Source of the DNA: Deltaproteobacteria bacterium
Lineage (GTDB): Bacteria > Desulfobacterota > Binatia > HRBIN30 > CADEER01
Direction: 5' to 3'
Assembly (NCBI GenBank): GCA_029262455.1
Contig: JAJCZJ010000020.1
Coordinates: forward strand, 325,078-389,077
DNA length: 64,000 nt
The notes beneath the pieces are model-generated. The model worked only from the letters and a program-made list of their open reading frames with translations. It was not told the origin of the DNA and did not search any database. Below are positions 32,612 through 46,878 of this stretch, piece by piece (the first letter of the stretch is position 1; every line of letters begins with the position of its first letter). A program made the position numbers and the translations under genes.

Positions 32612-33976
32612 ATGTCGTCAGGAAACAGCGTAGAAACGCCGCCTACCAACTCTGGAGACTCCCCACGAGCACGGGGTGCGGCGGCTCGGCGGGTACGTCC
32701 GCGGCAGCGGGGCGGGCTCGAGACTTTCGAAGTACACAACGAAATCGTCGTGCTTCCCGGCGAGGGGGACCGCGTTTACGCGCTGAACGAGTCCGGTAAG
32801 GAGATCTTCGGCCTCTGCGACGGTCGCCACACCCTAGAGGCAATGGTCGACCAACTGGCGTCGAGGTACGACGCGCCTGACGTCGCGATCATGGGCGACG
32901 TGTCCGCAGCGATATTCGACCTCCACGGCCTCGGGCTGGTCGATATTCCTCCACCGGCTGACGCAGCTGCATCGATCGAGCCGCAGACCTCGGTCAAGGC
33001 ACGACCCAACGTGCGTTTCGTCTTCGGCATAGAGGACGTGCCCTATTTCCACTGGCAGCTTGCCATCCTCTTCGAGTCGCTCGTCGGCCAATTGCCCGAC
33101 GGTTGGGACGTCACCGTCGTCGTTTGCAACGACGAAGCACCGATTTCCGACGAGCTCATGAAGATCGTTTCCGAGTACGGTGTTCGCATCATGACCGGCA
33201 CCAGTCTCGCCGATCGCCACAGTCTCGACTTCGCCGGCGGCGGTGATCGCTACGTTCCGATGAACCGAGTCGAAGCACTCAGCGTCATTCGGCAAATCGT
33301 CGAACCCGAAGACGTCGTTTGCCTTCTGGACACCGACGTCTTCCTGTACGGCAACCTTCAAGAACAACTCTTCCCGACCGGCAACGCAATGGCCCGCAAC
33401 TGGATCATCTCCGAAGATCGGTACTTCGCGTTCTCGACCAACAACGAACGAGGACTGTCGCTCCCGAAGCTGCTCGAAGCCCTGGGGTGCGAGCAGGAGT
33501 TCAAACCCGGTGGCGTAGCGGTCTTCTTGACGGGAGAGACGATCCAACGCGAGCGCGTCATCCCCGACATTTTCCGTTTCCTTCAGGTTCTGTTCCTGCT
33601 CGGGAAAATCGTCGACGCACCAGCGCACGGCGTTTGGGTCGCCGAAATGGCATGCTTCGCAATGGCCATGTACCCCAACGAAATCGACTACGAGCTTCTC
33701 GACATCCCGCAATTCGCCGTCCAGGAGCAGCATGCTGAAGTCGCCCCCGACGGTTCGTTCTTCCACTACTACACCGACATCAACGACGGCGGGGGATCAA
33801 ATGGTCCGTTTTTCGAATCGCAGTGGCATAAACAGTTATTTCACCAGTCCAACATGCTCCTCGAAGACTTCGACAGCTTCAGAGTGAACGCCAAAGGCCG
33901 CCTCGAGCAGCGCTTCTTCGAAATCGCCGACAAGGCGAGAAAGCGCCTTTACGGCATCGAACGCACGGGCAAGTAG
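32612..33976 (+). CDS. PqqD-like (RRE) domain fused to a DxD-containing putative glycosyltransferase domain
   Basis: Residues ~36-112 (FEVHNEIVVLPGEGDRVYALNESGKEIFGLCDGRHTLEAMVDQLASRYDAPDVAIMGDVSAAIFDLHGLGLVD) match the PqqD/RiPP-recognition-element pattern (LNETA..IWELCDG..T..EI...L...Y......DV..FL..L...GLI). The C-terminal domain has DTD and acidic motifs. Confidence 0.5.
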   Translation: MSSGNSVETPPTNSGDSPRARGAAARRVRPRQRGGLETFEVHNEIVVLPGEGDRVYALNESGKEIFGLCDGRHTLEAMVDQLASRYDAPDVAIMGDVSAAIFDLHGLGLVDIPPPADAAASIEPQTSVKARPNVRFVFGIEDVPYFHWQLAILFESLVGQLPDGWDVTVVVCNDEAPISDELMKIVSEYGVRIMTGTSLADRHSLDFAGGGDRYVPMNRVEALSVIRQIVEPEDVVCLLDTDVFLYGNLQEQLFPTGNAMARNWIISEDRYFAFSTNNERGLSLPKLLEALGCEQEFKPGGVAVFLTGETIQRERVIPDIFRFLQVLFLLGKIVDAPAHGVWVAEMACFAMAMYPNEIDYELLDIPQFAVQEQHAEVAPDGSFFHYYTDINDGGGSNGPFFESQWHKQLFHQSNMLLEDFDSFRVNAKGRLEQRFFEIADKARKRLYGIERTGK

Positions 33977-33980
33977 AGCC

Positions 33981-34598
33981 GTGTTGTCAATGTTCGATAC
34001 GCCCGCACACCTCGAGCAGCAGACGCGCGAGCAACAGGCCGCAGCCCGGTACTGCGGGCTCGGCTTCAAAAAGGCCACGCTGCCCTCCGAGGTCTTGCAA
34101 CGGTTGCGCCAACACCTGGAAACGAACAGCCGCCGATTCCGCGCCGAGGAGCCCATCGACTACCTCGTCAACCCGGACCCCGGGAAGATTCCGGCCCTTT
34201 ATTTCGAGGACAAAGAATTCAACGCCACCCTAAGTCGCGAGCTACAAGGATTGCACGAAGAGTGGGCCGGAAGGAGTCTGACCGAGTCCGCCTGCTACGG
34301 CATCCGCGTCTATCAACGCGGCAGCTTTCTCTACAACCACGTCGACCACACCGACACACACATCATCAGCTCTTCGATCTGCGTCGACCACCGCCTCGAC
34401 AAGCCGTGGCCCCTCTACGTCGAGGATATCGACGGCAATCCCCACCAGATCGATCTCGACCCTGGCGACATACTGTTCTACGAGGGAGCCCGCCTGCGAC
34501 ACGGCCGTGCCTATCCACTCGAGGGTGACTACTACGCATCCATTTTCGTCCACTATCGACCCGCAAATCTCTGGTCTTCGCGGCTCGTTGGCACCTAG
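33981..34598 (+). CDS. 2OG-Fe(II) oxygenase superfamily protein (PhyH/P4H-like)
   Basis: YNHVDHTD (HxD) followed by a distal H in LRHGR and a jelly-roll-like spacing. Alternative ATG start at 33990. Confidence 0.55.
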   Translation: MLSMFDTPAHLEQQTREQQAAARYCGLGFKKATLPSEVLQRLRQHLETNSRRFRAEEPIDYLVNPDPGKIPALYFEDKEFNATLSRELQGLHEEWAGRSLTESACYGIRVYQRGSFLYNHVDHTDTHIISSSICVDHRLDKPWPLYVEDIDGNPHQIDLDPGDILFYEGARLRHGRAYPLEGDYYASIFVHYRPANLWSSRLVGT

Positions 34599-34640: not shown

Positions 34641-36644
34641 GTGAGACATCTACTCTATACAAACTACCAGTCCGGTCAGTCGGGTTTGAGCAACGGCATC
34701 ATGTCGATCGAGCTGGGCGTGGTCCTCGCGTTCCTGACGAATCGGTTTCTCCTGCTCGATGGCAACATCTCCCCGCCGGCCAATATCGTGTCGTACGGCG
34801 ATCGAGTCGACAACAGCCAGCCGAGCCGCGTCACCGACCTGATCGACCTACCGGTCGCCTGGAGTGAGCCAGGAAGCGTCGACGTGTCCAAGTTGCCGTT
34901 CCTCGAATTGAGCGACGACCATCTGGGGAGTGCCGCGTTCTATGTCCCCGGCACCGTCGACATCCGATCCGCCGACGCGGAAGCGTTCGCCAACGGCAGG
35001 ACAGTGTGGCTCAACGCTGGCGGCTCGCTCGACGAGATCCCGGTGCTGCGAGTGTCCGAGGATCACAGCAAAGACAATCTTCGATACAATCTCAACTACT
35101 ACTCGTACTTCTTCTACCTCGACGACGAAACGCGTCGCTCCGTCTACCGCATGCTCGAGCGGATGCAACCAAAGCAGGACCTAGGGGAGCTGGCGAAGCG
35201 CGTCGCCGGCGATCTCGGAGCATTCAACGCGGTGCACTTGCGACGCGGTGACTTCAAGGTGACCTATGGAGTCACCACCCTCGACCGTCAACCTTGGGAA
35301 GCAATCGAGGCGCTCGAGCATCACTTCAAACGCGACGACACTCTGGTCTTCGTGACCGACGAGCGCGACGACCCGTTCTTCGACGAGATCAAGAAGGTCT
35401 ATACGCATCACGTATTCATCGATCACCACATCCTCGACGACTACGAGAAGGACTTCGCCGCATTGCAGCACCGCGACAGCATCGCCTTGGCCTATCTTTC
35501 CCAGCTCGTGGCGGCCGAATCCGCCGACTTCATTGGCACCATGACCAGCACGTTCACCGCCATCATCCAGCGCTACCGCGGCAATCGCGGCAAGGCCGAG
35601 AGTTTCAAGTACCTTTGGAACGAGCTCCCGGACGACGGCGATCGTCTCGAACGCGGCCGTCATCCGGTTAGTGAGTGCGTCCCGATGGACCGCGGCATGA
35701 TGGTCGAAGAGTCGTCGGGTCCGTACTCATGGAATCGCTACAACAAGAGGATCGCCGCCAACTGGATGCGCGAATGGCCCGAAAGTTTTCTGACCCAAGA
35801 GAGCCTCGAAACCGGCAAATTGACGACCGGGGCCAGCCCCGTTGCCCGCCCCATCGTTCTGGTTCGTCCCGAAAGGACGAAAGTCGAGGTCGCGTTCGAC
35901 GGCTTGAGCATCATTCTAAACTCGCAAGTGCCTCGCGTTGCGACCAAGCTGAGCGAAGCCTTCGAATCACGCCAAGCTGCGAGTCCAGCGAACGTCATCG
36001 GGGAGTTCGAGGTTGCTGAAGAAGACGGCGACTTCCGTCTTCTGCAACGCGGCCAGGAAATCGCCACCGCAGCAAGCTACGAGGAGTTGGCGCGCACGTT
36101 AAAACTCCGCATGGTGCCGATCTTTGTCGGTGCGCGCCGCCGGCACGTGTGGCTGGAAGCTTTTTCCTTCCGTAGAGCAGGCCATGCGCTGGTTCTCGCC
36201 GGCGACATGGGTCCTCCATCGGACTGGCTGCCGGACGCCATGTGCTCGAACGGCTGGGAGCTGCTGTGGGACGAGATCGTCCCGATCCGCCTGGAAGACT
36301 GTACCGTCACACCGTTCGGCCGCACGACCTGGCCGAAGGGCGCAGCCCTGCGCATCGACCGTACGCCCTGTCGCGTCAGCGGCCTGATCGTCACCAGCCG
36401 ACAAGTCCAGCGCCGCGACACCTTGACCGTCTTGTCCCCAGCCACCGGGGTGGCGGAGTTGATCGGCCGCTGCGTCGACTTCCGCACCGACCGCAAGCGG
36501 GCGGTAGAACGCCTGTGCAAGCTGGTCGAGAAACGAACCGTAGGCAGACTGTCCTTCAGCCGCGCCGAGACCGCTGTCGATCTCCTCACGCGCCCCTTCC
36601 TCGACGCGGAGCGTGAGTCCGCCCACGGTACAAAGTCTGCATGA
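34641..36644 (+). CDS. Fucosyltransferase-superfamily GT-B (O-FucT-like) domain plus ~250-aa C-terminal domain of unknown function
   Basis: N-terminal QSGLSNGIMSIELGVVLAFLTNRFLLL resembles the GGLxNQ block of O-FucT/POFUT-like GTs. HLRRGDF matches the H-x-R-R-G-D motif shared by GT11/GT23/GT65/GT68. The C-terminal region has no recognised motif. Confidence 0.45.
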   Translation: MRHLLYTNYQSGQSGLSNGIMSIELGVVLAFLTNRFLLLDGNISPPANIVSYGDRVDNSQPSRVTDLIDLPVAWSEPGSVDVSKLPFLELSDDHLGSAAFYVPGTVDIRSADAEAFANGRTVWLNAGGSLDEIPVLRVSEDHSKDNLRYNLNYYSYFFYLDDETRRSVYRMLERMQPKQDLGELAKRVAGDLGAFNAVHLRRGDFKVTYGVTTLDRQPWEAIEALEHHFKRDDTLVFVTDERDDPFFDEIKKVYTHHVFIDHHILDDYEKDFAALQHRDSIALAYLSQLVAAESADFIGTMTSTFTAIIQRYRGNRGKAESFKYLWNELPDDGDRLERGRHPVSECVPMDRGMMVEESSGPYSWNRYNKRIAANWMREWPESFLTQESLETGKLTTGASPVARPIVLVRPERTKVEVAFDGLSIILNSQVPRVATKLSEAFESRQAASPANVIGEFEVAEEDGDFRLLQRGQEIATAASYEELARTLKLRMVPIFVGARRRHVWLEAFSFRRAGHALVLAGDMGPPSDWLPDAMCSNGWELLWDEIVPIRLEDCTVTPFGRTTWPKGAALRIDRTPCRVSGLIVTSRQVQRRDTLTVLSPATGVAELIGRCVDFRTDRKRAVERLCKLVEKRTVGRLSFSRAETAVDLLTRPFLDAERESAHGTKSA

Positions 36645-37630
36645 CAGACCAAGCAACCGCACCGCGCCAGATCGACATCCGCATCTCCACCATCGGCGGG
36701 CACGAGTATCGGTTGAATCTCCGCGAAGACGCCGTCCATTTGCGCGACCTCTTTACTCGATTCGTCAACCGACCGGCGACTGGGGCTGTCCGAGCTCCTG
36801 AATTCATCCAACTGCCCCTCGACGGAGGCAACGCTTCCTGCACGATCGCCGTCGATCAGATTGTGTCGATCGTCACCACGCCACCAGTCGTCATCGAAGT
36901 GCAACAACCCGCCGTCGAGCCAAACGTAATTCCAGATGTGCCGGCAGTGGTCGCGCCACCCCAGATCCGGCGCGCACACTACACGGTGATCGACGACTTT
37001 CTCACCGTCGATGAGCACCGAGACATGCTGGCGTTGGCATTGAGCGAGAAGGACAGCTTCGAACCCGGTACGGTGCAGGGTGAACCGAGTCCACACCGAC
37101 GAAACAGCGTCATCATGAACTTCGCAGACTCGGCGCACGGAACACTGCTGACAAGTCGTCTGCTCGTTTGGTTTCCATTGATCGCAAAGGCGCTGAAGGA
37201 ACCACTGTTTCCGCTCAAGACGGTCGAGTCGCAACTGACCGCCGCCAACGACGGAGACTACTATAAGCCTCACCTCGATACCGACGGGAAGACCCCCGAT
37301 TTCCGGGTCATCGCGTGCGTCTACTATTTCTTCCGCGAGCCAAAAGGGTTCACGGGCGGCGACCTACGCCTCTATGATTCCATCGAAACAGGTGGCGAAA
37401 TCTGTCAGGCGGATTCCTTCCAAGACATTCGGCCGGCAAGCAATCGCTTGGTCGCATTCACCTGCGAGACCTTCCACGAGCTGCTCGCGACTCGCTGCCC
37501 GTCCAAGGATATCGAAGACAGTCGTTTTGCGGTGACCGCGTGGTTTCACCGCAGCGGCGCACCGGACCCCGACGCCAAGTTCGGTTGGGGACATTATCGT
37601 TGCGGCGAAGTTCCGGAGGCACTGCGGTGA
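36641..37630 (+). CDS. Novel ~80-aa N-terminal domain fused to a prolyl-4-hydroxylase-like 2OG-Fe(II) oxygenase
   Basis: C-terminal domain has YYKPHLDTD (HxD), GGDLRLY, NRLVAF..ETFHEL (second His) and RFAVTAWF (2OG-binding Arg), which is the P4H pattern. The N-terminus IDIRISTIGGHEYRLNL...LRDL...QLPLDGGNASCTIAVDQIVSIVTTPP is paralogous to the N-terminus of the 29406 protein. ATGA overlap with the upstream gene. Confidence 0.6.
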   Translation: MTDQATAPRQIDIRISTIGGHEYRLNLREDAVHLRDLFTRFVNRPATGAVRAPEFIQLPLDGGNASCTIAVDQIVSIVTTPPVVIEVQQPAVEPNVIPDVPAVVAPPQIRRAHYTVIDDFLTVDEHRDMLALALSEKDSFEPGTVQGEPSPHRRNSVIMNFADSAHGTLLTSRLLVWFPLIAKALKEPLFPLKTVESQLTAANDGDYYKPHLDTDGKTPDFRVIACVYYFFREPKGFTGGDLRLYDSIETGGEICQADSFQDIRPASNRLVAFTCETFHELLATRCPSKDIEDSRFAVTAWFHRSGAPDPDAKFGWGHYRCGEVPEALR

Positions 37631-37802: not shown

Positions 37803-38930
37803 ATGATCTTCACGGTTTTCGTCGCACCGGTCGAACCAACGCAACAGTGGCGTGCCGATCTCCTCGAATACTCATGGCGACGCATCAAGCAGAGCGGCGA
37901 ACTGATCCGGCTGGCGCCAACCGCCCCCGGACGCGCACCAGGTAGCAGAGGGAGAGTCGGGAGAACCGTCAAAACGTTCGACTGGAACCCCCACCCGTAC
38001 ACCCAGGACGTGTACGCCGGCTATCAGACAACCGCCGGCGTACTCGAGTGGTTGTTCAACGAGCCGGCCGAAGGAACAGTCCTTTTGCTGGATTCGAGCT
38101 GCATCCTACGCCACCCGGTTACAGCAGAGGTCGAACCAGGCCACGTGCGCGGGTCGTCGTGGCCGGAGATCCCACTTGGCACGGACGGCCCATTCGGCCT
38201 GCATGATGATCTGAAGTTTCTCGAATCCTATTGCGTCAACCGCAAGCTCCCCCTCGCTCCCGTGCGGATGCCGATTTTGATCCACACGGCGGACCTGCGA
38301 AAAATCGCGGCGCGCTGGCTCGAGCTTACGGCGTTGATTCGATCCCATGCCGTAGGCGTTCACGGAAAATACCTTCATGCAGATCGCGTCGCCTACACCG
38401 TCGCCGCCGCCGAATACCGCATCCTCCACACCCTTGACGACCTCGGCACTACGACGTCGGATACCGGCAAAGACGTTCCGATCGTCGACTACAGCACACC
38501 GATCAAGTCCAAACAGGGAGAGATCGTCTGGGACCGAAAGGTCTATCGACCATGGGAGGCAGTCTACACCGAAAATGCGCGCGCAGGCGCAGGCAGAGAC
38601 GTACTCGGGATCCTGAACGAGATGGTGACGCGCCGCGAATCGGGAGCCGAGCTTGCGGCAACACGTCCACAGCGGTGCTACGGGGTGCGGGAAGCACGAA
38701 TTCTCGACGACATTCATCTCGAAGTACCTGGGTGTGCCGACTTGATGTCGCTGAATCAATCCGCGGCTGCCATCTGGGAGCTGTGCAACGGCGAGAACAC
38801 ACTCGCCGAGATCGTCAGCGAGCTCGAGAGACAATTCGACGCGTCACGCGAAACCCTCATGACATCCGTCGAATCGACGGCGAGGGATTTGGAAAGCTCA
38901 GGTGCCATCGAGCTGGAGGAGCTGTTCTGA
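37803..38930 (+). CDS. Unassigned N-terminal (possibly glycosyltransferase) domain with C-terminal PqqD-like (RRE) domain
   Basis: C-terminal 83 aa ILDDIHLEVPGCADLMSLNQSAAAIWELCNGENTLAEIVSELERQFDASRETLMTSVESTARDLESSGAIELEE match the PqqD pattern. N-terminal ~290 aa begin MIFTVFVAPVEPTQQWRADLLEYSWRRIKQSG. Confidence 0.5.
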   Translation: MIFTVFVAPVEPTQQWRADLLEYSWRRIKQSGELIRLAPTAPGRAPGSRGRVGRTVKTFDWNPHPYTQDVYAGYQTTAGVLEWLFNEPAEGTVLLLDSSCILRHPVTAEVEPGHVRGSSWPEIPLGTDGPFGLHDDLKFLESYCVNRKLPLAPVRMPILIHTADLRKIAARWLELTALIRSHAVGVHGKYLHADRVAYTVAAAEYRILHTLDDLGTTTSDTGKDVPIVDYSTPIKSKQGEIVWDRKVYRPWEAVYTENARAGAGRDVLGILNEMVTRRESGAELAATRPQRCYGVREARILDDIHLEVPGCADLMSLNQSAAAIWELCNGENTLAEIVSELERQFDASRETLMTSVESTARDLESSGAIELEELF

Positions 38931-40156
38931 TGGCATCCAAAGCAAAACCAAGCGCCAAAAAGTCCGTGCCGACCACAAAAACAAAGCACGCAGCAAAACG
39001 TGCCAAAGCCTCGGCCAAGAAAACAGCCAAAGCGCCGCCCGGAAAAGCCACGACAGCACGGGCGAAGAAGACCACCAAGACTCCGGCCTCCAAGAGCCCC
39101 AAAACCCGGACCCAAAGGACCCGGGCCCAAAAGCCCCGGGCCCGCAAAGCCGCGCTCAAAGTATCGCAAACGGTGTCGCCCAAAGGATCGCAAACGACTT
39201 CGAAGACGGAGCGAACGACCCCATCGCCTCGCGCAAAGTCGCGGCAGGCCACAAAACAACCCCAGATCTTCGTGTCGATCGCCTCCTACCGCGACCAGTT
39301 TCTTCACTTCACCATCGAGTCGGTGCTCAAACAGGCGACGTACCCAGAACGGTTGACCTTCGGCCTCTGCTGGCAAGCCGACGACACCGAGCAACTCGAT
39401 CAATACCTGCACGATCCGCGTTTCCGCATTCGCAAGTACCCGTACTACGCGAGCCTCGGCTACGGTTGGGCAAGAGCCGAGATCCAAAAACTATACGCCG
39501 GCGAAGAGTACCATCTACTGATCGATTCTCACACGTATCTCGCCAAGGGGTGGGACGAGAATCTGATCGCGCAACTCGAGAGCAAGCCGGGCGAGAAGCC
39601 GCTACTGACGACCAGCTCACCCCCTTTCACCTTCGACAATGACGGCAACGTCGTAATCCCGTGGCAAGGGACCGAACACGACGGCGTGCCGCTGATGAAG
39701 TGCGCACGAATCCAACCGGCAGGGTGGGTCGACATCCAGATGTCCAATGAGCGCAAGTCCACCAAACATCAAACCACCGGATTGGTGTGCTGTAACTTTG
39801 TCTTCACGCACGGGGCTTGGATCCGCGAAGTGCCCGAGGATCCGGCGATGATCAACGCCGGCCACGAGTCAGCCCTTTCGGTTCGTACCTTCACCCACGG
39901 ATACGACATCTACCTGCCCGACGAAATTCAAATCTGGCACCTCGACTACAACAACTACCCGAACGGTGAGCGCAACAAGGTATGGGAAGCAAAGTCCGAC
40001 AGTTGGCAGTCTGAGGGCACCGAGATCATGCTGCGGCGGCTGCAAGCGCTGTTCTACAACCGCGGCGACCGCGCCTCGCTCGGCCGCTACGGACTCGGTC
40101 GATCCCGCACCGTAGCCGACTGGGCGGAGATCACCGGACTCGACCTCAGTGACTGA
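38930..40156 (+). CDS. GT60-like (Glyco_transf_GlcNAc / Skp1-Hyp and mucin-Thr GlcNAc-transferase family) enzyme with ~110-aa Lys/Ala/Thr-rich histone-H1-like N-terminal tail
   Basis: ATG overlaps the upstream stop (TGATG). Tail MASKAKPSAKKSVPTTKTKHAAKRAKASAKKTAKAPPGK... Catalytic region starts IFVSIASYRDQFLHFTIESVLKQATYPERLTFGLCWQADD, which I recognise as the N-terminal signature of the GT60 family from memory (needs HMM confirmation). Paralogous to 46893..47900. Confidence 0.45.
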   Translation: MASKAKPSAKKSVPTTKTKHAAKRAKASAKKTAKAPPGKATTARAKKTTKTPASKSPKTRTQRTRAQKPRARKAALKVSQTVSPKGSQTTSKTERTTPSPRAKSRQATKQPQIFVSIASYRDQFLHFTIESVLKQATYPERLTFGLCWQADDTEQLDQYLHDPRFRIRKYPYYASLGYGWARAEIQKLYAGEEYHLLIDSHTYLAKGWDENLIAQLESKPGEKPLLTTSSPPFTFDNDGNVVIPWQGTEHDGVPLMKCARIQPAGWVDIQMSNERKSTKHQTTGLVCCNFVFTHGAWIREVPEDPAMINAGHESALSVRTFTHGYDIYLPDEIQIWHLDYNNYPNGERNKVWEAKSDSWQSEGTEIMLRRLQALFYNRGDRASLGRYGLGRSRTVADWAEITGLDLSD

Positions 40157-41942
40157 CGTCGACTCCGCACTACTGCCAATTCCCCAACCCGAGTGGCGTG
40201 CTTCTTTATCCGGCGACGGCGCGGCAGTTGATGTCCTGATTTTAAGCAAGGACCGCGCCTGCCAACTCGACGGACTGCTGCGCACGATGCGCGCGTTCCT
40301 GACCATCCCACACCGGAAATACGTACTGTACAAGACGTCTAATTTGGCGTTCGAGCGCGGCTACGACATGCTCCGCCGGTGGAATCCCGAGGTCGAGTTC
40401 ATCGACGAGGCGCAAACGTTTCGACAATGCTACCTCGACCTCGTGGCAAGGATCGCCGCCGGGCCTGGTCGCTACTGGATGCCGGTGATGGACGACATGA
40501 TCTTCACTCGCACGTTCACCGCACAGCCACTCATCGACCTCCTCGACACAGACGAGGACGTGCTGGCGATCTCTCTGCGCCTCGGCGAGAACATTACCTA
40601 TTGCTACACCCGAAACGCTCCAACCACACCTCCGGACTTCAGCAACGGACACCGTTGGGAATGGAGAACAGCCAGCCCAGGCTACTGGAACTATCCAATG
40701 TCCGTCGACGCCAACATCTACCGCACGGCGGAAATGGCCGAATACATCCCGACCCTCCAATTCGGCAAGGCTGAAGTCATCGAGGCACGCATGGCCGGGG
40801 TGCCCTTGAACCGCCCCCATATGCTGTGTGAACCGACCCCCAGCGTACTCAATCTCGCGATCAACCGCGTTCAACACACCTTCAAGAATCGGCACGGCAC
40901 AATCACGCCAGAAGCCCTGAACGGCGCTTTCCTCGCGGGTTTCGCGATGGATGTGCGCCCGTTGCTGGGTCGAACCTTCAACGCCTGTCACGTCGAGGTC
41001 GAGCTGTCCTTGGTCCCCGATGCGCGCGAGCGCCCCGGCGCAACGCCCCTCTCTTCGACCGGCTGGAAACCACAGCGAAACGGCGCCGTCGTCGTGACCG
41101 AGAGCCATGCTGTCGTGACGCTCAAGAGGAACGGAACGAAGCTCAAACTCAATCAGAGCGCCGAAGAGATCTGGAAACTGTGCGACGGAACACGAACGCC
41201 CGAGGACATCCAAAACGAGCTCGCGCAACATTTTGACGCAACCCCGCGCCAGCTTCACAGCGGCGTACGAAGCGCCCTGGCGAATTTCATCAATCACGGC
41301 CTTCTCCGTCAGGAACGCCCGGAAGGCGCATACCGCCGCATCGACCTGCGCCAGATTCCCTGCTTCGTGATCAATTGCGAAGCCGATGCTGAGAAGGACA
41401 CGTTGATGAAGCGTCAGCTCGCTGAGCTCGGGATACCGTACGAACGTGTACCCGGGATCGCCGCAAGCCCGGATTGGGTCGGCGTCGCGCTGTCGCACCT
41501 CAAAGTGCTTCGCCTGACCCGCTCGACGACACCCTTCCTGGTGCTCGAGGACGATTGCTTGTTCAACGACCGCTTCCAACCAGTGTGGCAAGTACCGGTC
41601 GAGGCCGACGCCCTGTATCTCGGCGTTTCCGAGTTCGGCCTCGAGACCCCCGGTCACTTCAGCTGGGGCCGCCGGCGCAAGAACCAATGGAGACCCTACG
41701 ACCGGTCCTTCCTCCGCATTTTCAACATGCTCGCACGCCATGCGGTCGTGTACCTTTCCAACGACTACTGCGAGCAAGTCATCCAATCGCAAATCGAAGC
41801 ACTGACGAATCGAAGTTTGCCGTACCCTGGGGACATCGGCTGCGCGATGCTGCAAGCATCGCACGTCGTCCTGACCCCGAACGAACCGATCTGCCGGCAA
41901 ACCGGTCGTGACTCGACCGTGCGTCCGTTGCCGGAGCTCTGA
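40149..41942 (+). CDS. Three-domain enzyme: GT-A (GT2-like) domain - PqqD-like (RRE) domain - GT25 family glycosyltransferase domain
   Basis: GTG start overlapping the upstream stop. N-terminal VDVLILSKDRACQLDGLLRTM and a DDM motif (GT-A). Residues ~312-388 VVTLKRNGTKLKLNQSAEEIWKLCDGTRTPEDIQNELAQHFDATPRQLHSGVRSALANFINHGLL (PqqD-like). C-terminal CFVINCEADAEKDTLMKRQLAELGIPYERVPGI matches the GT25 N-terminal motif (LPS GT25 / collagen Hyl-galactosyltransferase family). Confidence 0.5.
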   Translation: MTDVDSALLPIPQPEWRASLSGDGAAVDVLILSKDRACQLDGLLRTMRAFLTIPHRKYVLYKTSNLAFERGYDMLRRWNPEVEFIDEAQTFRQCYLDLVARIAAGPGRYWMPVMDDMIFTRTFTAQPLIDLLDTDEDVLAISLRLGENITYCYTRNAPTTPPDFSNGHRWEWRTASPGYWNYPMSVDANIYRTAEMAEYIPTLQFGKAEVIEARMAGVPLNRPHMLCEPTPSVLNLAINRVQHTFKNRHGTITPEALNGAFLAGFAMDVRPLLGRTFNACHVEVELSLVPDARERPGATPLSSTGWKPQRNGAVVVTESHAVVTLKRNGTKLKLNQSAEEIWKLCDGTRTPEDIQNELAQHFDATPRQLHSGVRSALANFINHGLLRQERPEGAYRRIDLRQIPCFVINCEADAEKDTLMKRQLAELGIPYERVPGIAASPDWVGVALSHLKVLRLTRSTTPFLVLEDDCLFNDRFQPVWQVPVEADALYLGVSEFGLETPGHFSWGRRRKNQWRPYDRSFLRIFNMLARHAVVYLSNDYCEQVIQSQIEALTNRSLPYPGDIGCAMLQASHVVLTPNEPICRQTGRDSTVRPLPEL

Positions 41943-41977: not shown

Positions 41978-44900
41978 GTGAAAAAGGGCACAATCCACGA
42001 TCTCTTCTCCCGCACCGCTTGCGTCGTGTCCGACAGGCACCGATTCATCTATTTGACGGCGCAAAACGCCACGTCTTCCCTGAAGGCCGAGCTGTCGAAC
42101 GAGCACTGCGGCGGCGTTGTCCTCGCCCGCGCACAGGTGGCTGATAAACTCTGGAACCAATACTTTACGTTCGCCTTCCTGCGCGACCCGCTGACGCGCT
42201 TTCTCTCCGCCTATCAGGAAGTGTCTCTGCACATGGAGCGTGACAAACTCGAACCGCGCCCTTTCGGCCGGATGCCCGACGGCCTCGATCGCTTTCAGGC
42301 ATTTCTCGCGGACGTCGAGCAGAACGGTCCGTGGAACGAGCACATTGCACTCCAGCTAGCCTTCGTCGAGCGCCGAAGAATCGACTTTTGGGGGCTCGTC
42401 GAAACGCTGCAAGACGACTTCCAACAAATCTACACCCGGCTGGGATTGGGGACCTGTCCCGTTCTGCCAAAACGCCGCTCTCGCAGCGGCCGTGAGGAAA
42501 AGGACGGCATCTCGCGCTTCGCCTTCCATCCGGAGGACCTCGATGCGACGACAATTGAGCGCATCTACGACCTCTACCGTGAGGACGTCTTGCTGATTCG
42601 AGCGGTTCGCCCCGACGCACCTGAAATGCAGCCGCACTCAACCCGTGCCGCACCGCCCCCCGGAATGGTGCAGGTGGCGATCGCCCTGGCCAACGGCGGC
42701 GAATACTCCCTCGAACTTCCGCCCGGCCAACCAGAGCTGGGCGCTCTGCAAGCTGTGGTATCACCACAACAATCCGATGGACGTTTTCTCGGCCCGCAAG
42801 TTCTGCAGGTTCCACTGCGTGGTGGCAATTCCGCGCTGACGTTTTCCACGCAGCACCTCGTTCGTCTCGAGCTACGCCCCCCCGACGCCCGAGAACTGCG
42901 CCGAATCGAGGCGCCGGCCACCGGCACGGGCAACTCCGGAGTGAATCTAATAAACGTCGGGAACAAGCGGCCGCCAACCGAGGACCCATCGAGCAATATC
43001 GACGAGGCGCATCTCGGTGGCTACATTCGTGCGGCCAATACACCGATTCTCCACAGCGCCGCAGGCCCACACGGGGACCGGGGAACCTGGAATCCGCTGC
43101 TGTGGCGTTGGGCAATCGAAGATCTCGACGTGCGATCAGTGATCGATATCGGATGCGGCGAGGGACACGCCGCCGGATTTTTCTCCGACGGCGGGTGTGA
43201 AGTGCTCGCGCTCGATGGCAGCCTTCAAGCGCGCTATTCCAGCGTTGTTCCAGATCGCCACGTCGTACACGACTTCGTCGAGGGACCTTTCGTCCCAGAG
43301 AAAAGCTTCGACATGGCCTGGACCTGCGAGTTCGTCGAACACGTCGAGGCGCGTTTTCTCCACAATTTCCTGGCTACGATCGCATCGAGCCGCAAGTACG
43401 TGATGATGACGTTCGCCAGCCCGACACAAACAGGCTGGCATCACGTCAATTGCCAAGAACAGGGTTACTGGGTCGATCAGTTGGGACGCCTCGGGTTTCG
43501 CCTGGACGACGATCTAACCGAGAGAGGCCGAGCCTTGGCTCACTCTCATTTTCGCGAACGTGGCCTGGTCTTCGTCCGGCACCATCGAAAAGGCGAGTCA
43601 TCGAAGTCCACAGAACCGTCGCTGCGCGCGACTGCCGAGAGTCACTGTCTCGACCCGCTGCCGGTCCAATCCATGCAGGTCGCACAGCGCGAGAGCGATG
43701 CCTTCTACCTGTTTGTCGACATCTTCGTGCATCCGACCGCACCGAGAATCGTGGCGATCTCACCACCCTATGGCGAAGACTGGAATCCTAACGTTGTCGG
43801 CATCGACTACGATGCCGTCGACCTTGTATTCGGTGACATACGCGTCCGCGGCCGCTGCCTGCGGCACCGTCTCGACTCCTGGGAGCCTTGCATGCTTCTC
43901 GAGTTCGAGGACGAAGACCTAACAGAGCGCATTCGGGCCAACGACGAGATCAACGTCACGATCGAGGCCGGCTCGCATTCGTCGTCCTTCGTCCTGACGA
44001 CCCGCCCAGCGCCAGCCTACGATGTCGCAATGAGCCTCGTCGTACGCAACGAAAACCGCTGGATCCGCACGTTTCTCGACTACTACCTCGACTGCGTCAA
44101 AGCCGACCACGTCTTCATCTACGACAACGGAACGTCGGAACAAGACCAGCTGCTTTCCATTCTTCACCCGTACCGAGAGCGCGGGCAAGTGACGTACATC
44201 CCGTGGGATTTTCGCTGGCGCAACCGCATCGACCGCAAGATGATCGGCCAACCGACACAGGAGGCTCACTCCCTTGCAAGATTCGCAAACACCGGGTGGA
44301 TCGGCTTTCTCGACATCGACGAGTTCCTGCGCTTGCCGCACAGCACCCTGCCACAATTTCTCGCTCGCTTCGCGTCCGCGGAGGTCGACGGACTCTCGTT
44401 CGGTATCCGGTGGTTTTCTTACGAGGGCCCGCTTGCACTCGATGAGATTACGAGTGTGCCACTGCAATTCCTCCACTCGCGCCGCAATGAGCTCGGCCGA
44501 AAACGGCAGAAGTTCTTCGTCAAAGGCGGCGGCTCGAAGTTTCTTCGCTTGCATTGGCTCGAAGACGGAGGTCGCGAACTGCCCATCGACGACACCGAGA
44601 TCTACTTTCACCACTACGATCAACGTCCCGGCCGTTTCGAAGAAGGAAAGCAAATCGGAGGAGCGCGCGACGAATACATGCTGCGCTTCGCCGACCAGCT
44701 CTCGCGCCCCGAGCGGCACAGAGCCCCTCTAACCGAGAGAGGATGGATCACCCACATCAACTCTTCGATCGAACGCGCCGAACGCGACACCTCCAAACTC
44801 ACCCCGGAAGTCCTCGCCGTCGACGGCATGTGCGGGCGCTACACCCGTCACTTCTACAACAACCTCTGCAGCTTCGGAGGATGCCGCTACCTCGAGATCG

Positions 44901-45385
44901 GCAGCTATCACGGGGCCAGCACCTGCGCGGCAATCTTCGGCAACGACGTATCCGCCGTGTGCATCGACAATTGGACACAGTTTCACGGCAAGCGAAGCCG
45001 CTTCGAGGATGCCCTACGACGCTTCCGAGGAGATCGCTCGGTCCGAGTCATCGAGCAAAACTGCTTCGAAGTAGACGCCTCAAGCCTCGGCCCATTCGAC
45101 ATCTATCTCTACGATGGCGACCACAGCCAGCAGAACCAGTACCGAGCCTTGCAGCACTTCGTTCAGACGCTGGCCAAGCTCGCCGTAGTCGTCATCGACG
45201 ACTGGAATCGTCGGCATATCCGTCGGGGGACACAGGACGCGATTCGGGACCTCGAACTCGATGTAATCTTCGACCGAGAGATCCTACTGCCAACCGACCA
45301 GACGGCGGATGAAAACCGTGACGCTGGAGCGCGAACTTGGTGGAACGGACTCTACATCATGCTCGTTCGCAGTAGAACGCAGTAG
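41978..45385 (+). CDS. 1135-aa five-domain enzyme: sulfotransferase (Sulfotransfer_2-like) - novel ~80-aa domain - class I SAM methyltransferase - GT-A glycosyltransferase (DIDEFL) - TylF/CmcI-like O-methyltransferase
   Basis: GTG start. Five domains are visible:
- (1) 5'-PSB-like RFIYLTAQNATSSLKAEL and 3'-PB FLRDPLTRFLSAY, carbohydrate sulfotransferase motifs.
- (2) MVQVAIALANGGEYSLELP...LQVPLRGGNSALTFSTQHLVRLELRPP, homologous to the N-termini of the 29406 and 36641 proteins.
- (3) RSVIDIGCGEGHAAGFFSDGGCEVLALD, methyltransferase motif I.
- (4) HVFIYDNGTSEQ...GWIGFLDIDEFL, GT-A DxD.
- (5) FDIYLYDGDHS, Methyltransf_24 (TylF/MycF-like) motif. Confidence 0.55.
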   Translation: MKKGTIHDLFSRTACVVSDRHRFIYLTAQNATSSLKAELSNEHCGGVVLARAQVADKLWNQYFTFAFLRDPLTRFLSAYQEVSLHMERDKLEPRPFGRMPDGLDRFQAFLADVEQNGPWNEHIALQLAFVERRRIDFWGLVETLQDDFQQIYTRLGLGTCPVLPKRRSRSGREEKDGISRFAFHPEDLDATTIERIYDLYREDVLLIRAVRPDAPEMQPHSTRAAPPPGMVQVAIALANGGEYSLELPPGQPELGALQAVVSPQQSDGRFLGPQVLQVPLRGGNSALTFSTQHLVRLELRPPDARELRRIEAPATGTGNSGVNLINVGNKRPPTEDPSSNIDEAHLGGYIRAANTPILHSAAGPHGDRGTWNPLLWRWAIEDLDVRSVIDIGCGEGHAAGFFSDGGCEVLALDGSLQARYSSVVPDRHVVHDFVEGPFVPEKSFDMAWTCEFVEHVEARFLHNFLATIASSRKYVMMTFASPTQTGWHHVNCQEQGYWVDQLGRLGFRLDDDLTERGRALAHSHFRERGLVFVRHHRKGESSKSTEPSLRATAESHCLDPLPVQSMQVAQRESDAFYLFVDIFVHPTAPRIVAISPPYGEDWNPNVVGIDYDAVDLVFGDIRVRGRCLRHRLDSWEPCMLLEFEDEDLTERIRANDEINVTIEAGSHSSSFVLTTRPAPAYDVAMSLVVRNENRWIRTFLDYYLDCVKADHVFIYDNGTSEQDQLLSILHPYRERGQVTYIPWDFRWRNRIDRKMIGQPTQEAHSLARFANTGWIGFLDIDEFLRLPHSTLPQFLARFASAEVDGLSFGIRWFSYEGPLALDEITSVPLQFLHSRRNELGRKRQKFFVKGGGSKFLRLHWLEDGGRELPIDDTEIYFHHYDQRPGRFEEGKQIGGARDEYMLRFADQLSRPERHRAPLTERGWITHINSSIERAERDTSKLTPEVLAVDGMCGRYTRHFYNNLCSFGGCRYLEIGSYHGASTCAAIFGNDVSAVCIDNWTQFHGKRSRFEDALRRFRGDRSVRVIEQNCFEVDASSLGPFDIYLYDGDHSQQNQYRALQHFVQTLAKLAVVVIDDWNRRHIRRGTQDAIRDLELDVIFDREILLPTDQTADENRDAGARTWWNGLYIMLVRSRTQ

Positions 45386-45412: not shown

Positions 45413-45892
45413 TTACTCCTCGCCCTTGGTTTCTTTTCCCACGGGAGCCGGTCGGCCCTCGTCGTCATCCGAAGCAATGAGCTTTTTAGCACCGAAGCCA
45501 AAGAGCGCCGCTGCGGCCACAGCCGCGGCGCCGCCTGAAACCACAGGCGCATCGACTGCTGCCTGAAAGGCGGTCGGAACCGCCGTACTGGGAAGGCCCG
45601 GATCGAGGACCGTCGGGACCTGCGTCGGTGCGGCAGTAGGATTGAGGCAAAGTGACGGCGAATTGGTACATTGCGTCGTCCCAGCTTCGACAGGCGCGAC
45701 GAATCCAAGATCAGACGAGACCGGTACCGATAAGATCACCGGCGTTACCCAGGCAATCTTGAGCGCCGAGCGCCTTGAAATATCGTCGGAAAAAGTCGGC
45801 CGCGCCGCCTTCCCGTCCGTCACCAGCTCGCCCCGCAGCCGCTCGATCTCCTCGAGAAGCTCCTTTTTCGTCTTCGTTCCGTCACCCGCCAT
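45413..45892 (-). CDS. Small exported Pro/Thr/Ser/Ala-rich protein, paralog B (coiled-coil N-region plus SRRSALK Tat-like motif, C-terminal hydrophobic segment)
   Basis: Internal Met of ORF 45413..45997, preceded by gagggtc. MAGDGTKTKKELLEEIERLRGELVTDGK...DISRRSALKIAWVTPVILSVPVSS, then a PT-rich region with two Cys, then AAAVAAAALFGFGAKKLIASDDDEG. Confidence 0.5.
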   Translation of the reverse strand: MAGDGTKTKKELLEEIERLRGELVTDGKAARPTFSDDISRRSALKIAWVTPVILSVPVSSDLGFVAPVEAGTTQCTNSPSLCLNPTAAPTQVPTVLDPGLPSTAVPTAFQAAVDAPVVSGGAAAVAAAALFGFGAKKLIASDDDEGRPAPVGKETKGEE

Positions 45893-46744: not shown

Positions 46745-46759
46745 GGGGATTCTATGTGT

Positions 46760-46878
46760 GTGATTGGTGACTGGTGATTCGTGACTGGTGACTGGTGATT
46801 CGTGACTGGTGACTGGTGATTCGTGACTGGTGACTGGTGATTCGTGACTGGTGACTGGTGACTGGTGACTGGTGATTG
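46760..46878. repeat. 17 tandem copies of a heptanucleotide (GTGACTG/GTGATTC; 21-nt super-unit x4) between the GT60-like gene and the sulfotransferase
   Basis: Read directly: gtgattg gtgactg gtgattc gtgactg gtgactg gtgattc ... gtgactg gtgattg. On the minus strand this is CAGTCAC/GAATCAC. In the reading frame of ORF 46049..46900 it encodes the heptad TSHESPV five or more times. Confidence 0.8.

What the first reader, a model, noticed from the sequence alone, without database searches (positions are those of the whole stretch)
38930..39260. Histone-H1-like Lys/Ala/Thr/Pro-rich tail (~110 aa) on a GT60-like glycosyltransferase; a tail-less paralog lies at 46893-47900
MASKAKPSAKKSVPTTKTKHAAKRAKASAKKTAKAPPGKATTARAKKTTKTPASKSPKTRTQRTRAQKPRARKAALKVSQTVSPKGSQTTSKTERTTPSPRAKSRQATKQPQ is extremely basic (pI well above 11) and low-complexity. 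The catalytic part begins IFVSIASYRD.

Such tails are known on bacterial histone-like or Alg-type proteins but not on glycosyltransferases. The tail could bind a polyanion, such as nucleic acid or a sulfated acidic substrate. Alternatively it could be a Thr/Ser/Pro-rich auto-substrate.

The GT60 call itself matters: this family is otherwise almost exclusively eukaryotic, found in Dictyostelium, trypanosomatids and apicomplexans.
Basis: partly seen in the sequence, partly recalled or inferred. Interest (0 to 1): 0.65.

Follow-up and report, generated by a model that had tools for sequence, protein, structure and literature searches.

The report
Lysine-rich tail on bacterial GT60 glycosyltransferase
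One uncultured bacterium has gained a 112-residue, strongly positively charged, disordered tail on an otherwise ordinary, widespread bacterial sugar-transferase; the tail is a one-off, and the more interesting thing is the conserved operon around it, which looks like a bacterial version of mucin-type protein glycosylation.

Summary
ATG 38930 opens a 408-aa protein. Residues 1-112 are K/A/T/S/P/R-rich (net +33, pI 12.0), and residues 113-408 match PF11397/GT60 (E 2e-44). The tail-less paralog at 46893-47900 (-) is real (38% identity). The tail is probably translated: its ATG overlaps the upstream stop as in orthologs, a GGAGGAG lies 8 nt upstream, the DNA has 3-base periodicity, and no other start keeps the invariant IF of the first strand.

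The tail is a singleton. None of the 120 best of 230 homologs has it, nor do ten related loci; close orthologs (81-83% identity) start 8-13 residues before IFVSIASYRD. It is therefore a lineage-specific in-frame insertion of about 300 bp. It has no detectable homology and is predicted to be disordered.

GT60 is not eukaryote-restricted: 5,231 clusters match, many of the named ones bacterial. Basic tails also recur before GT60 domains elsewhere, for example in Polynucleobacter.

The enzyme sits in a conserved operon with a P4H-like oxygenase, three PqqD/RRE-bearing enzymes, sulfotransferases, and a leader-bearing, twin-arginine, (x)PT-repeat small protein that is the likely substrate. My best reading is an accessory polyanion-binding arm, or a neutral extension.

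The parts
38930..40156 (+). Gene for the tailed GT60-family glycosyltransferase (408 aa plus stop)
   Evidence: ORF and start. PF11397 E 1.9e-44. Exact protein P0001 is present in NCBI and Logan.
38930..39265 (+). Polycationic low-complexity N-terminal tail, residues 1-112 (net +33, pI 12.0), predicted disordered
   Evidence: Composition. pLDDT below 50 and no secondary structure for residues 1-97. No Pfam hit and no homologs. Absent from all orthologs examined. 3-base periodicity.
38915..38921 (+). Shine-Dalgarno-like GGAGGAG, 8 nt before ATG 38930, inside the end of the upstream gene. The stop and start overlap (TGATG).
   Evidence: Sequence read. Same junction architecture in L002.
39096..39143 (+). 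15-bp tandem repeat x3.3 inside the tail. A 20-nt direct repeat also lies at 39153-39196. Both are traces of local duplication or slippage.
39266..40153 (+). GT-A catalytic domain (residues 113-408) with invariant D199-S200-H201 (DxH) and H337
   Evidence: Alignment A2. AlphaFold model with pLDDT mostly above 80. Best PDB fold matches are GT27 polypeptide GalNAc-transferases, E 1e-10.
46893..47900 (-). Tail-less GT60 paralog (335 aa), conserved next to a sulfotransferase in other loci
   Evidence: PF11397 E 1.1e-43. 38% identity to the tailed copy. Orthologs in L002, L012, L013, L014.
36641..37630 (+). 2OG-Fe(II) oxygenase, prolyl-4-hydroxylase-like
   Evidence: PF13640 E 3.9e-15. The only PDB sequence hit is 'Prolyl 4-hydroxylase subunit alpha' 6t8m, E 4e-5. 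Fused to GT60 domains in P0121-P0123.
37803..38930 (+). Protein with C-terminal PqqD/RRE-like domain, translationally coupled to the GT60 gene
   Evidence: PF05402 E 1.9e-13. NCBIfam PqqD-type chaperone hits. Synteny in 9 loci.
40149..41942 (+). PqqD/RRE-like domain protein with a weak GT25-like region
   Evidence: Synteny.
32612..33976 (+). First PqqD/RRE-domain protein of the operon
   Evidence: PF05402 E 7.6e-14. Synteny.
33981..34598 (+). Conserved 205-aa operon protein with no family assignment
34641..36644 (+). O-fucosyltransferase-like protein (below the Pfam cut-off). Its C-terminal part weakly resembles HprK-related kinase A.
   Evidence: Synteny.
31963..32469 (+). Candidate substrate 1: 168-aa protein with a conserved N-terminal helix (KxxLIEELExLR), invariant twin arginine, a W-x-x-P-V hydrophobic stretch, then an (x)PT-repeat region
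   Evidence: Homologs sit directly upstream of the first PqqD gene in L002, L012, L013, L014. Family search.
45413..45892 (-). Candidate substrate 2: second copy (159 aa) of the leader/twin-arginine/P-T-rich protein
41978..45385 (+). Multidomain sulfotransferase / methyltransferase / GT92 / methyltransferase protein
   Evidence: Synteny.
46049..46900 (-). Sulfotransferase downstream of the paralog. Its 5' end contains a heptamer/21-bp tandem repeat (46760-46880).
   Evidence: PF03567. Repeat. Ortholog starts at the position of ATG 46744.

Best explanation
The feature is a genuine, translated, intrinsically disordered polycationic N-terminal extension. It was created by a lineage-specific in-frame insertion of about 300 bp of A/C-rich low-complexity DNA just after the start codon of a conserved, soluble bacterial GT60-family enzyme. 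That enzyme is a retaining GT-A polypeptide alpha-HexNAc-transferase type with a DxH motif.

The enzyme belongs to a widely distributed operon that appears to build a mucin-like glycoprotein in the cytoplasm. The inferred steps are as follows. A small protein carries an N-terminal recognition helix, a twin-arginine signal-like segment and (x)PT repeats. PqqD/RRE domains fused to three of the enzymes recognise it. A P4H-like dioxygenase acts on it. The two GT60 enzymes give it its first sugars on Hyp and/or Thr. Further glycosyltransferases, methyltransferases and sulfotransferases elaborate it, and it is then exported.

The tail is not needed for catalysis, since every ortholog lacks it. If it does anything, it most likely acts as a non-specific electrostatic arm that holds the enzyme on a polyanion. 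By default that would be nucleic acid or polyphosphate, as for other bacterial Lys-rich tails. Operon-specific alternatives are the sulfated glycoprotein product or the anionic membrane at the export site.

Shown: the anatomy, the insertion, its uniqueness, the family assignment, the synteny and the gene fusions. Inferred: translation of the full tail, the substrate, the order of reactions, and any binding function.
For: Translation and insertion:
- The start/stop overlap and Shine-Dalgarno sequence are conserved with L002.
- 3-base periodicity exceeds all 2000 shuffles.
- No alternative start preserves the invariant I113-F114.
- An independent assembly is identical.
- Internal 15-bp and 20-nt repeats are present.

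Uniqueness: none of the 120 best homologs nor ten related loci has the tail.

Disorder: pLDDT is below 50 for residues 1-97.

Enzyme: PF11397 match, GT27-like fold, invariant DxH.

Operon:
- Six-gene core synteny across Binatia, Lysobacterales, Halieaceae, Luminiphilus and Nitrotoga.
- P4H-GT60 fusion proteins exist, and the oxygenase hits a P4H structure.
- The PT-repeat protein has an invariant RR and a conserved leader.

Recurrence of basic segments before GT60 domains: 5 of 82 upstream windows have net charge >= +8, against 21 of 2655 background windows, p = 8.6e-4. Examples include Polynucleobacter P0228 and the P0121 linker.

Literature: GT60 enzymes initiate mucin-type O-glycans and Skp1-Hyp glycosylation in protists (PMC8724618, PMC6939170). 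Lys-rich bacterial tails bind DNA, RNA or polyphosphate (PMC9239181, PMC12818456, PMC3553676).
Against: - The tail is a singleton, so there is no conservation signal and no test of selection.
- T-poor DNA leaves every frame open, so the ORF itself is weak evidence.
- The tail has no homology to any characterised polyanion-binding family.
- The enrichment of basic pre-domain segments is modest (p = 5.6e-3 without the query). It partly comes from proteins whose Lys/Asn/Ser-rich sequence suggests AT-rich genomes, and from interdomain linkers.
- The Tat reading of the substrate rests on motifs only; no Tat-signal HMM hit was obtained.
- No expression or biochemical data exist.
Confidence: 0.55

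Rival explanations
1. Neutral extension. The tail is translated but has no function. It is a recent slippage- or duplication-born low-complexity insertion, tolerated because the N-terminus of this enzyme accepts almost anything.
For: - The tail occurs in one lineage only.
- Short internal repeats are present.
- N-terminal variability and fusions occur in the family (P0011, P0118, P0044, P0049).
- A second junction insertion, a heptamer repeat, lies in the same operon of the same genome.
- The A/C-rich DNA gives basic peptides in all three forward frames.
Against: - Basic segments recur at this same position in unrelated family members more often than in background windows.
- A +33 disordered arm in the cytoplasm will bind polyanions, so it is unlikely to be without effect.
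- Codon-position periodicity suggests the frame has been maintained.
Confidence: 0.3
2. Not translated. The true start is downstream (GTG 39173 or GTG 39272), and 38930-39172 is a non-coding A/C-rich insert between two genes.
For: T-poor DNA keeps all frames open by composition alone. Orthologs have only 8-13 residues before the domain. The same genome has a repeat insert at another gene junction, where a downstream ATG is available.
Against: - There is no Shine-Dalgarno sequence before 39173 or 39272, while GGAGGAG precedes 38930 at the conserved coupled junction.
- A start at 39272 would delete the invariant I113-F114 of the first strand.
- A start at 39173 still leaves a 31-aa basic extension.
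- The insert length keeps the frame and shows codon periodicity.
Confidence: 0.1
3. Auto-substrate or fused substrate. The Thr/Ser/Pro-rich tail is itself glycosylated by the enzyme or the operon, as a cis-acting acceptor or substrate mimic.
For: The tail is 38% T+S+P. GT60 enzymes modify Thr and Hyp in Pro/Thr-rich contexts (PMC8724618). The operon's apparent substrates are P/T-rich.
Against: - The candidate substrate core has 20 PT dipeptides and no Lys. The tail has 1 PT and 21% Lys.
- The tail lacks the conserved leader helix and the RR motif.
- Dedicated substrate genes are present twice in the window.
- The tail is absent from all orthologs.
Confidence: 0.05

Closest known systems
Protist GT60 polypeptide alpha-GlcNAc-transferases (Dictyostelium/Toxoplasma Gnt1 acting on Skp1-Hyp; Trypanosoma cruzi and Dictyostelium mucin-type pp-alphaGlcNAcTs)
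   Same: Same Pfam family PF11397, far above cut-off. DxH motif. A partner P4H-like dioxygenase is adjacent, and fused in relatives, mirroring PhyA+Gnt1. A Pro/Thr-rich acceptor is likely. Family roles are taken from PMC8724618 and PMC6939170.
   Different: The protein is bacterial and soluble. It is embedded in an operon with PqqD/RRE-bearing enzymes and sulfotransferases. There is no Skp1. It carries a polycationic tail. Neither the sugar nor the acceptor residue has been determined. No phylogeny against eukaryotic members could be made with these tools.
GT27 polypeptide GalNAc-transferases (animal and Toxoplasma mucin-type initiation)
   Same: These are the best structural matches of the catalytic-domain model (Foldseek E 1e-10, TM about 0.5). 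They share the retaining GT-A fold with DxH and act on Thr/Ser/Pro-rich mucin domains.
   Different: Sequence identity is only 13-16%. There is no C-terminal ricin-type lectin domain. No PDB sequence-level hit was obtained. The protein is cytoplasmic, not Golgi.
Lys/Ala/Pro-rich 'histone H1-like' tails of bacterial proteins (AlgP, PhaF, mycobacterial Ku and HupB)
   Same: Extreme basicity, low complexity and predicted disorder. Those tails bind DNA, RNA or polyphosphate non-specifically (PMC9239181, PMC12818456, PMC3553676).
   Different: There is no regular KPAA/PAKKA-type repeat; only a 15-bp x3.3 repeat is present. The tail is much richer in Thr and Ser. No homology is detectable. It is attached to a glycosyltransferase, and binding has not been tested.
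GT60-family protein of Polynucleobacter paneuropaeus (MBT8543380.1 = P0228) and other members with basic pre-domain segments (P0136, P0141, P0121, P0138)
   Same: A Lys-rich disordered segment sits immediately N-terminal to the IFVxIASYRD strand of a GT60 domain. The P0121 linker (KKPTKAPSAKSTSTKKTATAKSTATK) has nearly the same K/A/T/S/P composition.
   Different: The origins are independent, with no alignable similarity, and the subfamilies are distant. The gene context differs in Polynucleobacter. Several are interdomain linkers rather than terminal tails.
RRE (PqqD-like)-dependent RiPP pathways; RRE-glycosyltransferase fusions flagged by RRE-Finder
   Same: Three operon enzymes carry PqqD-like domains. 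An adjacent small gene encodes a conserved N-terminal 'leader'. RRE-glycosyltransferase fusions are noted as uncharacterised in PMC7470986 and PMC12710340.
   Different: The substrate is a 100-190-aa repeat protein rather than a short peptide. The leader precedes a twin-arginine signal-like segment. The chemistry (hydroxylation, O-glycosylation, sulfation) resembles eukaryotic mucin or extensin processing.

Membership tests
GT60 / Pfam PF11397 (GlcNAc-transferase family) | Significant match to the family HMM above the curated cut-off | tested here: met
   153 bits (cut-off 21), E 1.9e-44. Paralog 150 bits.
GT60 / Pfam PF11397 (GlcNAc-transferase family) | GT-A fold related to GT27 polypeptide HexNAc-transferases | tested here: met
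   AlphaFold model pLDDT mostly above 80 for residues 113-408. Top 50 PDB hits include GT27 GalNAc-Ts throughout, E 1e-10 to 2e-8.
GT60 / Pfam PF11397 (GlcNAc-transferase family) | DxH metal-binding motif plus a distal His | tested here: met
   D199, S200, H201 and H337 are invariant in 32 sequences, including the paralog. Their assignment as metal ligands is inferred from knowledge of GT27/GT60 and was not checked structurally.
GT60 / Pfam PF11397 (GlcNAc-transferase family) | UDP-GlcNAc:polypeptide (Thr/Ser/Hyp) alpha-GlcNAc transfer | not testable with these tools
   Needs an enzyme assay.
   230 close homologs, with bacterial names wherever a source gives one. Nine loci in named bacterial genomes. 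5,231 clusters at 50% identity.
Histone H1-like / AlgP-type Lys-rich nucleic-acid-binding tails | Extreme basicity, low complexity, disorder | tested here: met
   Net +33, pI 12.0. pLDDT below 50.
Histone H1-like / AlgP-type Lys-rich nucleic-acid-binding tails | Sequence homology to, or the characteristic short repeats (KPAA, PAKKA, AKKA) of, a described family | tested here: not met
   No Pfam family even at E<=10. No homolog among 5.8 billion proteins. Only a 15-bp x3.3 repeat.
Histone H1-like / AlgP-type Lys-rich nucleic-acid-binding tails | Binding to DNA, RNA or polyphosphate | not testable with these tools
   Needs EMSA or heparin/polyphosphate binding assays.
PhyA+Gnt1-type hydroxyproline glycosylation pathway | Prolyl-4-hydroxylase-type 2OG oxygenase functionally linked to the GT60 enzyme | tested here: met
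   A PF13640 gene lies two genes upstream in all syntenic loci. It is fused with GT60 domains in P0121-P0123. Its only PDB sequence hit is a prolyl 4-hydroxylase. The link is by synteny and fusion only.
PhyA+Gnt1-type hydroxyproline glycosylation pathway | Skp1 as acceptor | not tested
   No Skp1-like gene was looked for. The operon instead carries (x)PT-repeat proteins.
RRE-dependent (RiPP-like) modification system | PqqD-like recognition domains in, or next to, the modifying enzymes | tested here: met
   PF05402 in three operon proteins, E 4e-11 to 8e-14. NCBIfam PqqD-family chaperone models match below their cut-offs.
RRE-dependent (RiPP-like) modification system | Adjacent precursor gene with a conserved leader and a variable core | tested here: met
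   Six sequences share M1, E14, L18, R19, R43, R44, W51, P54, V55 and P60, followed by variable (x)PT repeats. 17 further family members, all 'hypothetical'. Leader-RRE binding is itself not testable here.
Tat (twin-arginine) exported protein (candidate substrate) | Invariant RR followed by a moderately hydrophobic stretch and a small-x-small cleavage site | tested here: inconclusive
   RR is invariant and a W-x-x-P-V stretch is conserved (W51, P54, V55 invariant; most copies read W-x-A-P-V-I-L). AHA-Q, AQA-Q or VHA-Q follows in the gammaproteobacterial copies. No NCBIfam Tat-signal model matched at E<=0.01.

The most novel reading that the evidence does not exclude
The operon is an undescribed bacterial, cytoplasmic, leader-guided (RRE-dependent) mucin-type O-glycosylation and sulfation pathway. 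It acts on a twin-arginine-exported (x)PT-repeat protein and uses the same enzyme pair (P4H-type dioxygenase plus GT60) that protists use for Skp1 and mucins. That would make it a candidate prokaryotic counterpart, or source, of that eukaryotic chemistry. In this one lineage the initiating GT60 has acquired a polycationic arm that keeps it on the growing sulfated, polyanionic product or at the anionic export site.
Probability: 0.3. Interest if true: 0.75.

Novelty: new variant of a known kind. Interest (0 to 1): 0.45.

Why it matters
The tail alone matters little. It is a single-lineage disordered extension on a member of a large bacterial enzyme family, and similar basic segments have arisen elsewhere in that family.

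The context it led to matters more. A conserved operon found in a cultured Luminiphilus and in Halieaceae, Lysobacterales, Nitrotoga and Binatia MAGs combines a prolyl-hydroxylase-like enzyme, two GT60 enzymes, RRE-bearing glycosyltransferases, sulfotransferases and a dedicated Pro/Thr-repeat protein. If confirmed, it would be a bacterial system for making mucin-like sulfated glycoproteins by RiPP-style substrate recognition. It would also give a tractable prokaryotic model for GT60 and PhyA-type chemistry. Luminiphilus syltensis NOR5-1B offers a cultured organism in which to test this.

Tried and rejected
- Tail alone against Pfam at E<=10 and against 5.8 billion proteins: nothing, so no derivation from H1, AlgP or Hc families could be shown. 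HMMER's composition-bias handling may hide weak similarity.
- Sequence search of the full protein and of a 32-sequence profile against PDB: only chance-level hits. Similarity to solved glycosyltransferases was detectable only by fold search, which returned GT27 enzymes.
- L007 looked as if it matched part of the tail (query residues 62-407). On inspection this was read-through of upstream DNA, and its real start is MSTNTGGAPR-IFIS.
- A scan of the window for other Lys-rich low-complexity stretches in six frames found none outside 38867-39260. A 32-nt piece of the tail occurs once only.
- Rfam over the whole window: no RNA family. The promoter/terminator scan was no better than shuffles.
- The afdb50 fold library was unavailable, so no taxonomic spread of structural neighbours and no eukaryote-versus-bacteria phylogeny could be made.
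- Literature searches for this operon, for GT60 in bacteria, and for PF11397 found no description. They turned up only generic notes that RRE-glycosyltransferase fusions exist.
- The window's own genome is not among the GTDB representatives searched. The organism is inferred only loosely, since the nearest ortholog is from a Candidatus Binatia MAG at 82% identity.
Full report
**1. Observation**

The ORF listing shows a long frame from 38552 to 40156. Within it, ATG 38930 begins MASKAKPSAKK, and the motif IFVSIASYRD starts at 39266.

The 112 residues in between are K24, A20, T19, S12, P11, R10, Q7, with one Glu and no Asp. Net charge is +33 and computed pI is 12.0. The remaining 296 residues have pI 5.4.

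PF11397 matches the protein at E 1.9e-44 (153 bits, cut-off 21). It matches the ORF 46896-47900 on the minus strand at E 1.1e-43. The two are 38% identical over 303 residues, and the paralog starts four residues before its IFVAIASY.

**2. Is the tail translated?**

The tail DNA is 34.5% A, 36% C, 24% G and only 5.7% T. Stop codons are therefore rare in every frame, and long ORFs appear on both strands. The open frame alone is weak evidence. Four other observations support translation from 38930.

- *Conserved junction.* The ATG overlaps the stop of the upstream PqqD-domain gene (TGATG). In the syntenic locus L002 the ortholog's start overlaps the same gene's stop in the same way.
- *Ribosome-binding site.* GGAGGAG lies 8 nt upstream of 38930. 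The in-frame GTGs at 38966, 39173 and 39272 have nothing similar.
- *No nearer start.* There is no ATG, GTG or TTG in the 31 codons before I113-F114. Both residues are invariant in 32 family members. A start at 39272 would remove them.
- *Codon periodicity.* Base composition differs strongly by codon position (54% C at position 2). The chi2 is 32.6, against a mean of 5.7 and a maximum of 22.2 in 2000 shuffles.

Codon usage is similar to neighbouring genes, with somewhat more A-ending codons. A Logan assembly of run SRR15505514 is identical to window 32394-42174, so the insert is not peculiar to one assembler. I put non-translation at about 10%.

**3. Distribution of the tail**

A search of 5.8 billion clustered proteins gave 230 homologs at E<=1e-10. 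The best 120 are 60-83% identical over the catalytic part. Almost all are 298-313 aa. The only exact match with the tail is the window's own protein, a cluster of one.

The longer hits carry other things:
- an unrelated N-terminal domain (P0011);
- flanking sulfotransferase-like and methyltransferase-like regions (P0118);
- a short Gly/Ala/Ser-rich extension of about 27 aa (P0044, P0049).

In ten related loci the in-frame sequence upstream of the motif was read directly. Every ortholog has a start codon 8-13 residues before IFVSIASYRD. One apparent partial match to the tail (L007) was read-through of upstream DNA.

The tail is therefore a gain in this lineage: about 300 bp inserted between the start codon and the conserved 'xPR-IFV' entry to the domain. 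It contains a 15-bp unit repeated 3.3 times (39096-39143) and a 20-nt direct repeat 24 nt apart (39153-39196). These suggest growth by local duplication.

The tail alone matches no Pfam family even at E<=10. It has no homolog in the protein collection. AlphaFold gives it pLDDT below 50 and no secondary structure for residues 1-97.

**4. The enzyme**

The catalytic part folds with confidence (pLDDT mostly above 80) into an alpha/beta GT-A domain. Its best matches among solved structures are human, fly, mouse and Toxoplasma polypeptide GalNAc-transferases (GT27), at E 1e-10 to 2e-8 and TM about 0.5.

No solved structure is detectable by sequence. D199-S200-H201 and H337 are invariant. This fits the DxH...H metal site of GT27/GT60, an assignment from general knowledge of those families.

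According to PMC8724618 and PMC6939170, GT60 comprises the polypeptide alpha-GlcNAc-transferases. In protists these initiate mucin-type O-glycans, and Gnt1 modifies hydroxyproline of Skp1.

The family is not confined to eukaryotes. Named sources of close homologs include:
- Halieaceae, Congregibacter, Acidobacteriota, Polyangia and Pseudomonadota MAGs;
- Candidatus Binatia, Lysobacterales, Thermodesulfobacteriota, Nitrotoga and the cultured Luminiphilus syltensis NOR5-1B.

A profile search of 1.84 billion representatives finds 5,231 clusters at E<=1e-3 and 3,566 at E<=1e-10.

**5. The surroundings**

The gene order is conserved in L002-L014, across several classes:
1. small P/T-rich protein;
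2. PqqD-domain protein;
3. 205-aa protein;
4. O-FucT-like protein;
5. 2OG-Fe(II) oxygenase;
6. PqqD-domain protein;
7. GT60.

Downstream genes are less uniformly conserved. L002, L003, L010 and L011 have the PqqD/GT25-like protein next, and several loci have a sulfotransferase/methyltransferase/GT92 protein. A sulfotransferase+GT60-paralog pair occurs in L002, L012 and L013, and L014 has the paralog.

The oxygenase is PF13640. Its only PDB sequence hit is a prolyl 4-hydroxylase. In P0121-P0123, several GT60 domains are fused with PF13640 domains in one polypeptide; two of the three also carry an AhpC domain. This independently ties the two activities together.

Three operon proteins carry PqqD-like domains, the fold of RiPP recognition elements (PMC7470986).

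Directly upstream of the first PqqD gene, each of five loci has a small gene with no family assignment. The window has a second copy at 45413-45892 (-). Six sequences share an N-terminal helix-like KxxLIEELExLR, an invariant Arg-Arg, a conserved W-x-x-P-V stretch (W51, P54, V55 invariant), and then a variable run of (x)PT repeats. Seventeen more were found, including one in Luminiphilus, and all are 'hypothetical'.

I read this small protein as the substrate. In this reading the RRE domains recognise a leader, a twin-arginine signal-like segment follows, and the mucin-like core is hydroxylated, O-glycosylated, methylated and sulfated before export. The synteny, fusions and motifs are shown. 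The chemistry, its order and the export route are inferred. No Tat HMM matched.

Searches of the paper library found no description of this operon. RRE-glycosyltransferase fusions are mentioned only as uncharacterised.

**6. What the tail may do**

Because every ortholog works without it, the tail is accessory. Three points bear on function.

- *Physics.* A +33 disordered arm in the cytoplasm will associate with polyanions. Characterised bacterial Lys-rich tails (AlgP, PhaF, Ku) bind DNA, RNA or polyphosphate (PMC9239181, PMC12818456, PMC3553676).
- *Operon chemistry.* The operon encodes two sulfotransferase-domain proteins, and none of the N-termini I read showed a signal-peptide-like hydrophobic stretch. 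A sulfated, polyanionic glycoprotein would therefore probably be present beside the enzyme. This gives an operon-specific candidate ligand.
- *Recurrence.* Basic K/S/T/A/P segments recur immediately before GT60 domains in unrelated members. Examples are an 80-aa tail in Polynucleobacter paneuropaeus MBT8543380.1, a 40-aa tail in P0136, and linkers in P0141, P0121 and P0138. Among 82 domains with at least 25 upstream residues, 5 have net charge >= +8 in the preceding 40 residues. The background is 21 of 2655 windows from the same proteins (p = 8.6e-4, or 5.6e-3 leaving out the query).

This enrichment is modest. It partly reflects linkers from proteins whose Lys/Asn/Ser-rich sequence suggests AT-rich genomes. 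Still, it argues that a cationic flexible segment at this position is at least well tolerated and perhaps useful.

Against the auto-substrate idea, the candidate substrate core has 20 PT dipeptides and no Lys. The tail has one PT and lacks the leader.

I therefore favour an accessory polyanion-binding arm with the target undetermined. A neutral extension is the main rival.

**7. Comparison and novelty**

The enzyme is a member of GT60/PF11397 by HMM, fold and motif. Activity is untested.

The tail works like an H1/AlgP-type tail in composition only, and it fails the homology and repeat criteria. The combination of a GT60 enzyme and a basic tail is not unique, as Polynucleobacter shows. The finding as stated is thus a new variant of known kinds and of moderate-to-low interest. 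The operon is the part that deserves follow-up.

**8. Limits**

- No phylogeny against eukaryotic GT60 was possible. The afdb50 library was unavailable, and the large protein libraries carry no taxonomy.
- The organism is not identified beyond its nearest ortholog, a Binatia MAG at 82% identity.
- Only 64 kb of the genome was available, so I cannot say whether other proteins of this organism carry similar tails.

Noticed in passing
window 31963-32469 (+) and 45413-45892 (-); also L002 3368-3937, L012 3356-3886, L013 3521-3847, L014 3642-4040: Uncharacterised small proteins with a conserved N-terminal helix (KxxLIEELExLR), an invariant twin arginine, a conserved W-x-x-P-V stretch and (x)PT repeats. 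They always sit just upstream of the first PqqD gene of the operon. They are the likely leader-bearing, exported, mucin-like substrate. No Pfam or NCBIfam family matches.
   Followed up: partly
window 46760-46880 (-): A heptamer GTGACTG repeated 17.3 times (21-bp unit x5.8, 96% matches) lies between GTG 46900, which overlaps the end of the GT60 paralog, and ATG 46744, where orthologous sulfotransferases start. Read from 46900 it encodes (HESPVTS)n in frame. No Shine-Dalgarno sequence precedes 46744. Gain or loss of one unit would shift the frame, so this may be a slipped-strand on/off switch for sulfation. It is also a second junction insertion specific to this genome.
   Followed up: partly
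proteins P0121, P0122, P0123: Giant proteins of 1,641-2,461 aa fuse several GT60 domains with P4H-type PF13640 domains; P0121 and P0123 also carry an AhpC/TSA peroxiredoxin domain. These fusions link the hydroxylase and GT60 activities.
   Followed up: partly
window 16733-24116 (+): Three consecutive YfhO-like membrane proteins (707, 720 and 726 aa) with a GT2 glycosyltransferase between the second and third. This looks like an extracytoplasmic glycosylation module about 10 kb upstream of the operon.
   Followed up: no
window 30086-31942 (+); L002 925-3342: A Cys-rich disintegrin-like protein with a PT-rich linker (TPTPVPTPTPTPVP) and a C-terminal hydrophobic anchor lies directly upstream of the small PT protein. 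The L002 homolog has a very long (PTVTAT)n tract. It may be a second mucin-like substrate.
   Followed up: no
window 34641-36644 (+), residues 500-570: The C-terminal part of the O-FucT-like protein weakly matches TIGR04352, HprK-related kinase A (E 1.3e-6, far below cut-off). From memory, that family belongs to peptide-modification cassettes that also carry PqqD-family chaperones; this was not checked here.
   Followed up: no
window 27498-28907 (-); L012 16230-20024; L014 11407-13434: An MBOAT acyltransferase (window, L012) and a Peptidase_C25 gingipain-like protease (L012, L014) recur beside the operon. They are possible acylation and processing steps.
   Followed up: no
L016 8001-10700 (JGI 3300025889 contig, 29.9 kb): An 899-aa GT60+GT2 fusion with a 40-aa Lys-rich N-terminal tail sits in a co-directional block of large genes, most without a Pfam hit; the contig's origin (bacterial or viral) was not determined.
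   Followed up: no
window 41978-45385 (+) versus L002 12733-15474: The sulfotransferase/methyltransferase/GT92 protein is 1135 aa here, with an extra C-terminal Methyltransf_24 domain. It is 913 aa in L002. In L012 and L013 it is fused to the upstream PqqD protein (1430 and 1837 aa). Domain shuffling in this operon is frequent.
   Followed up: no
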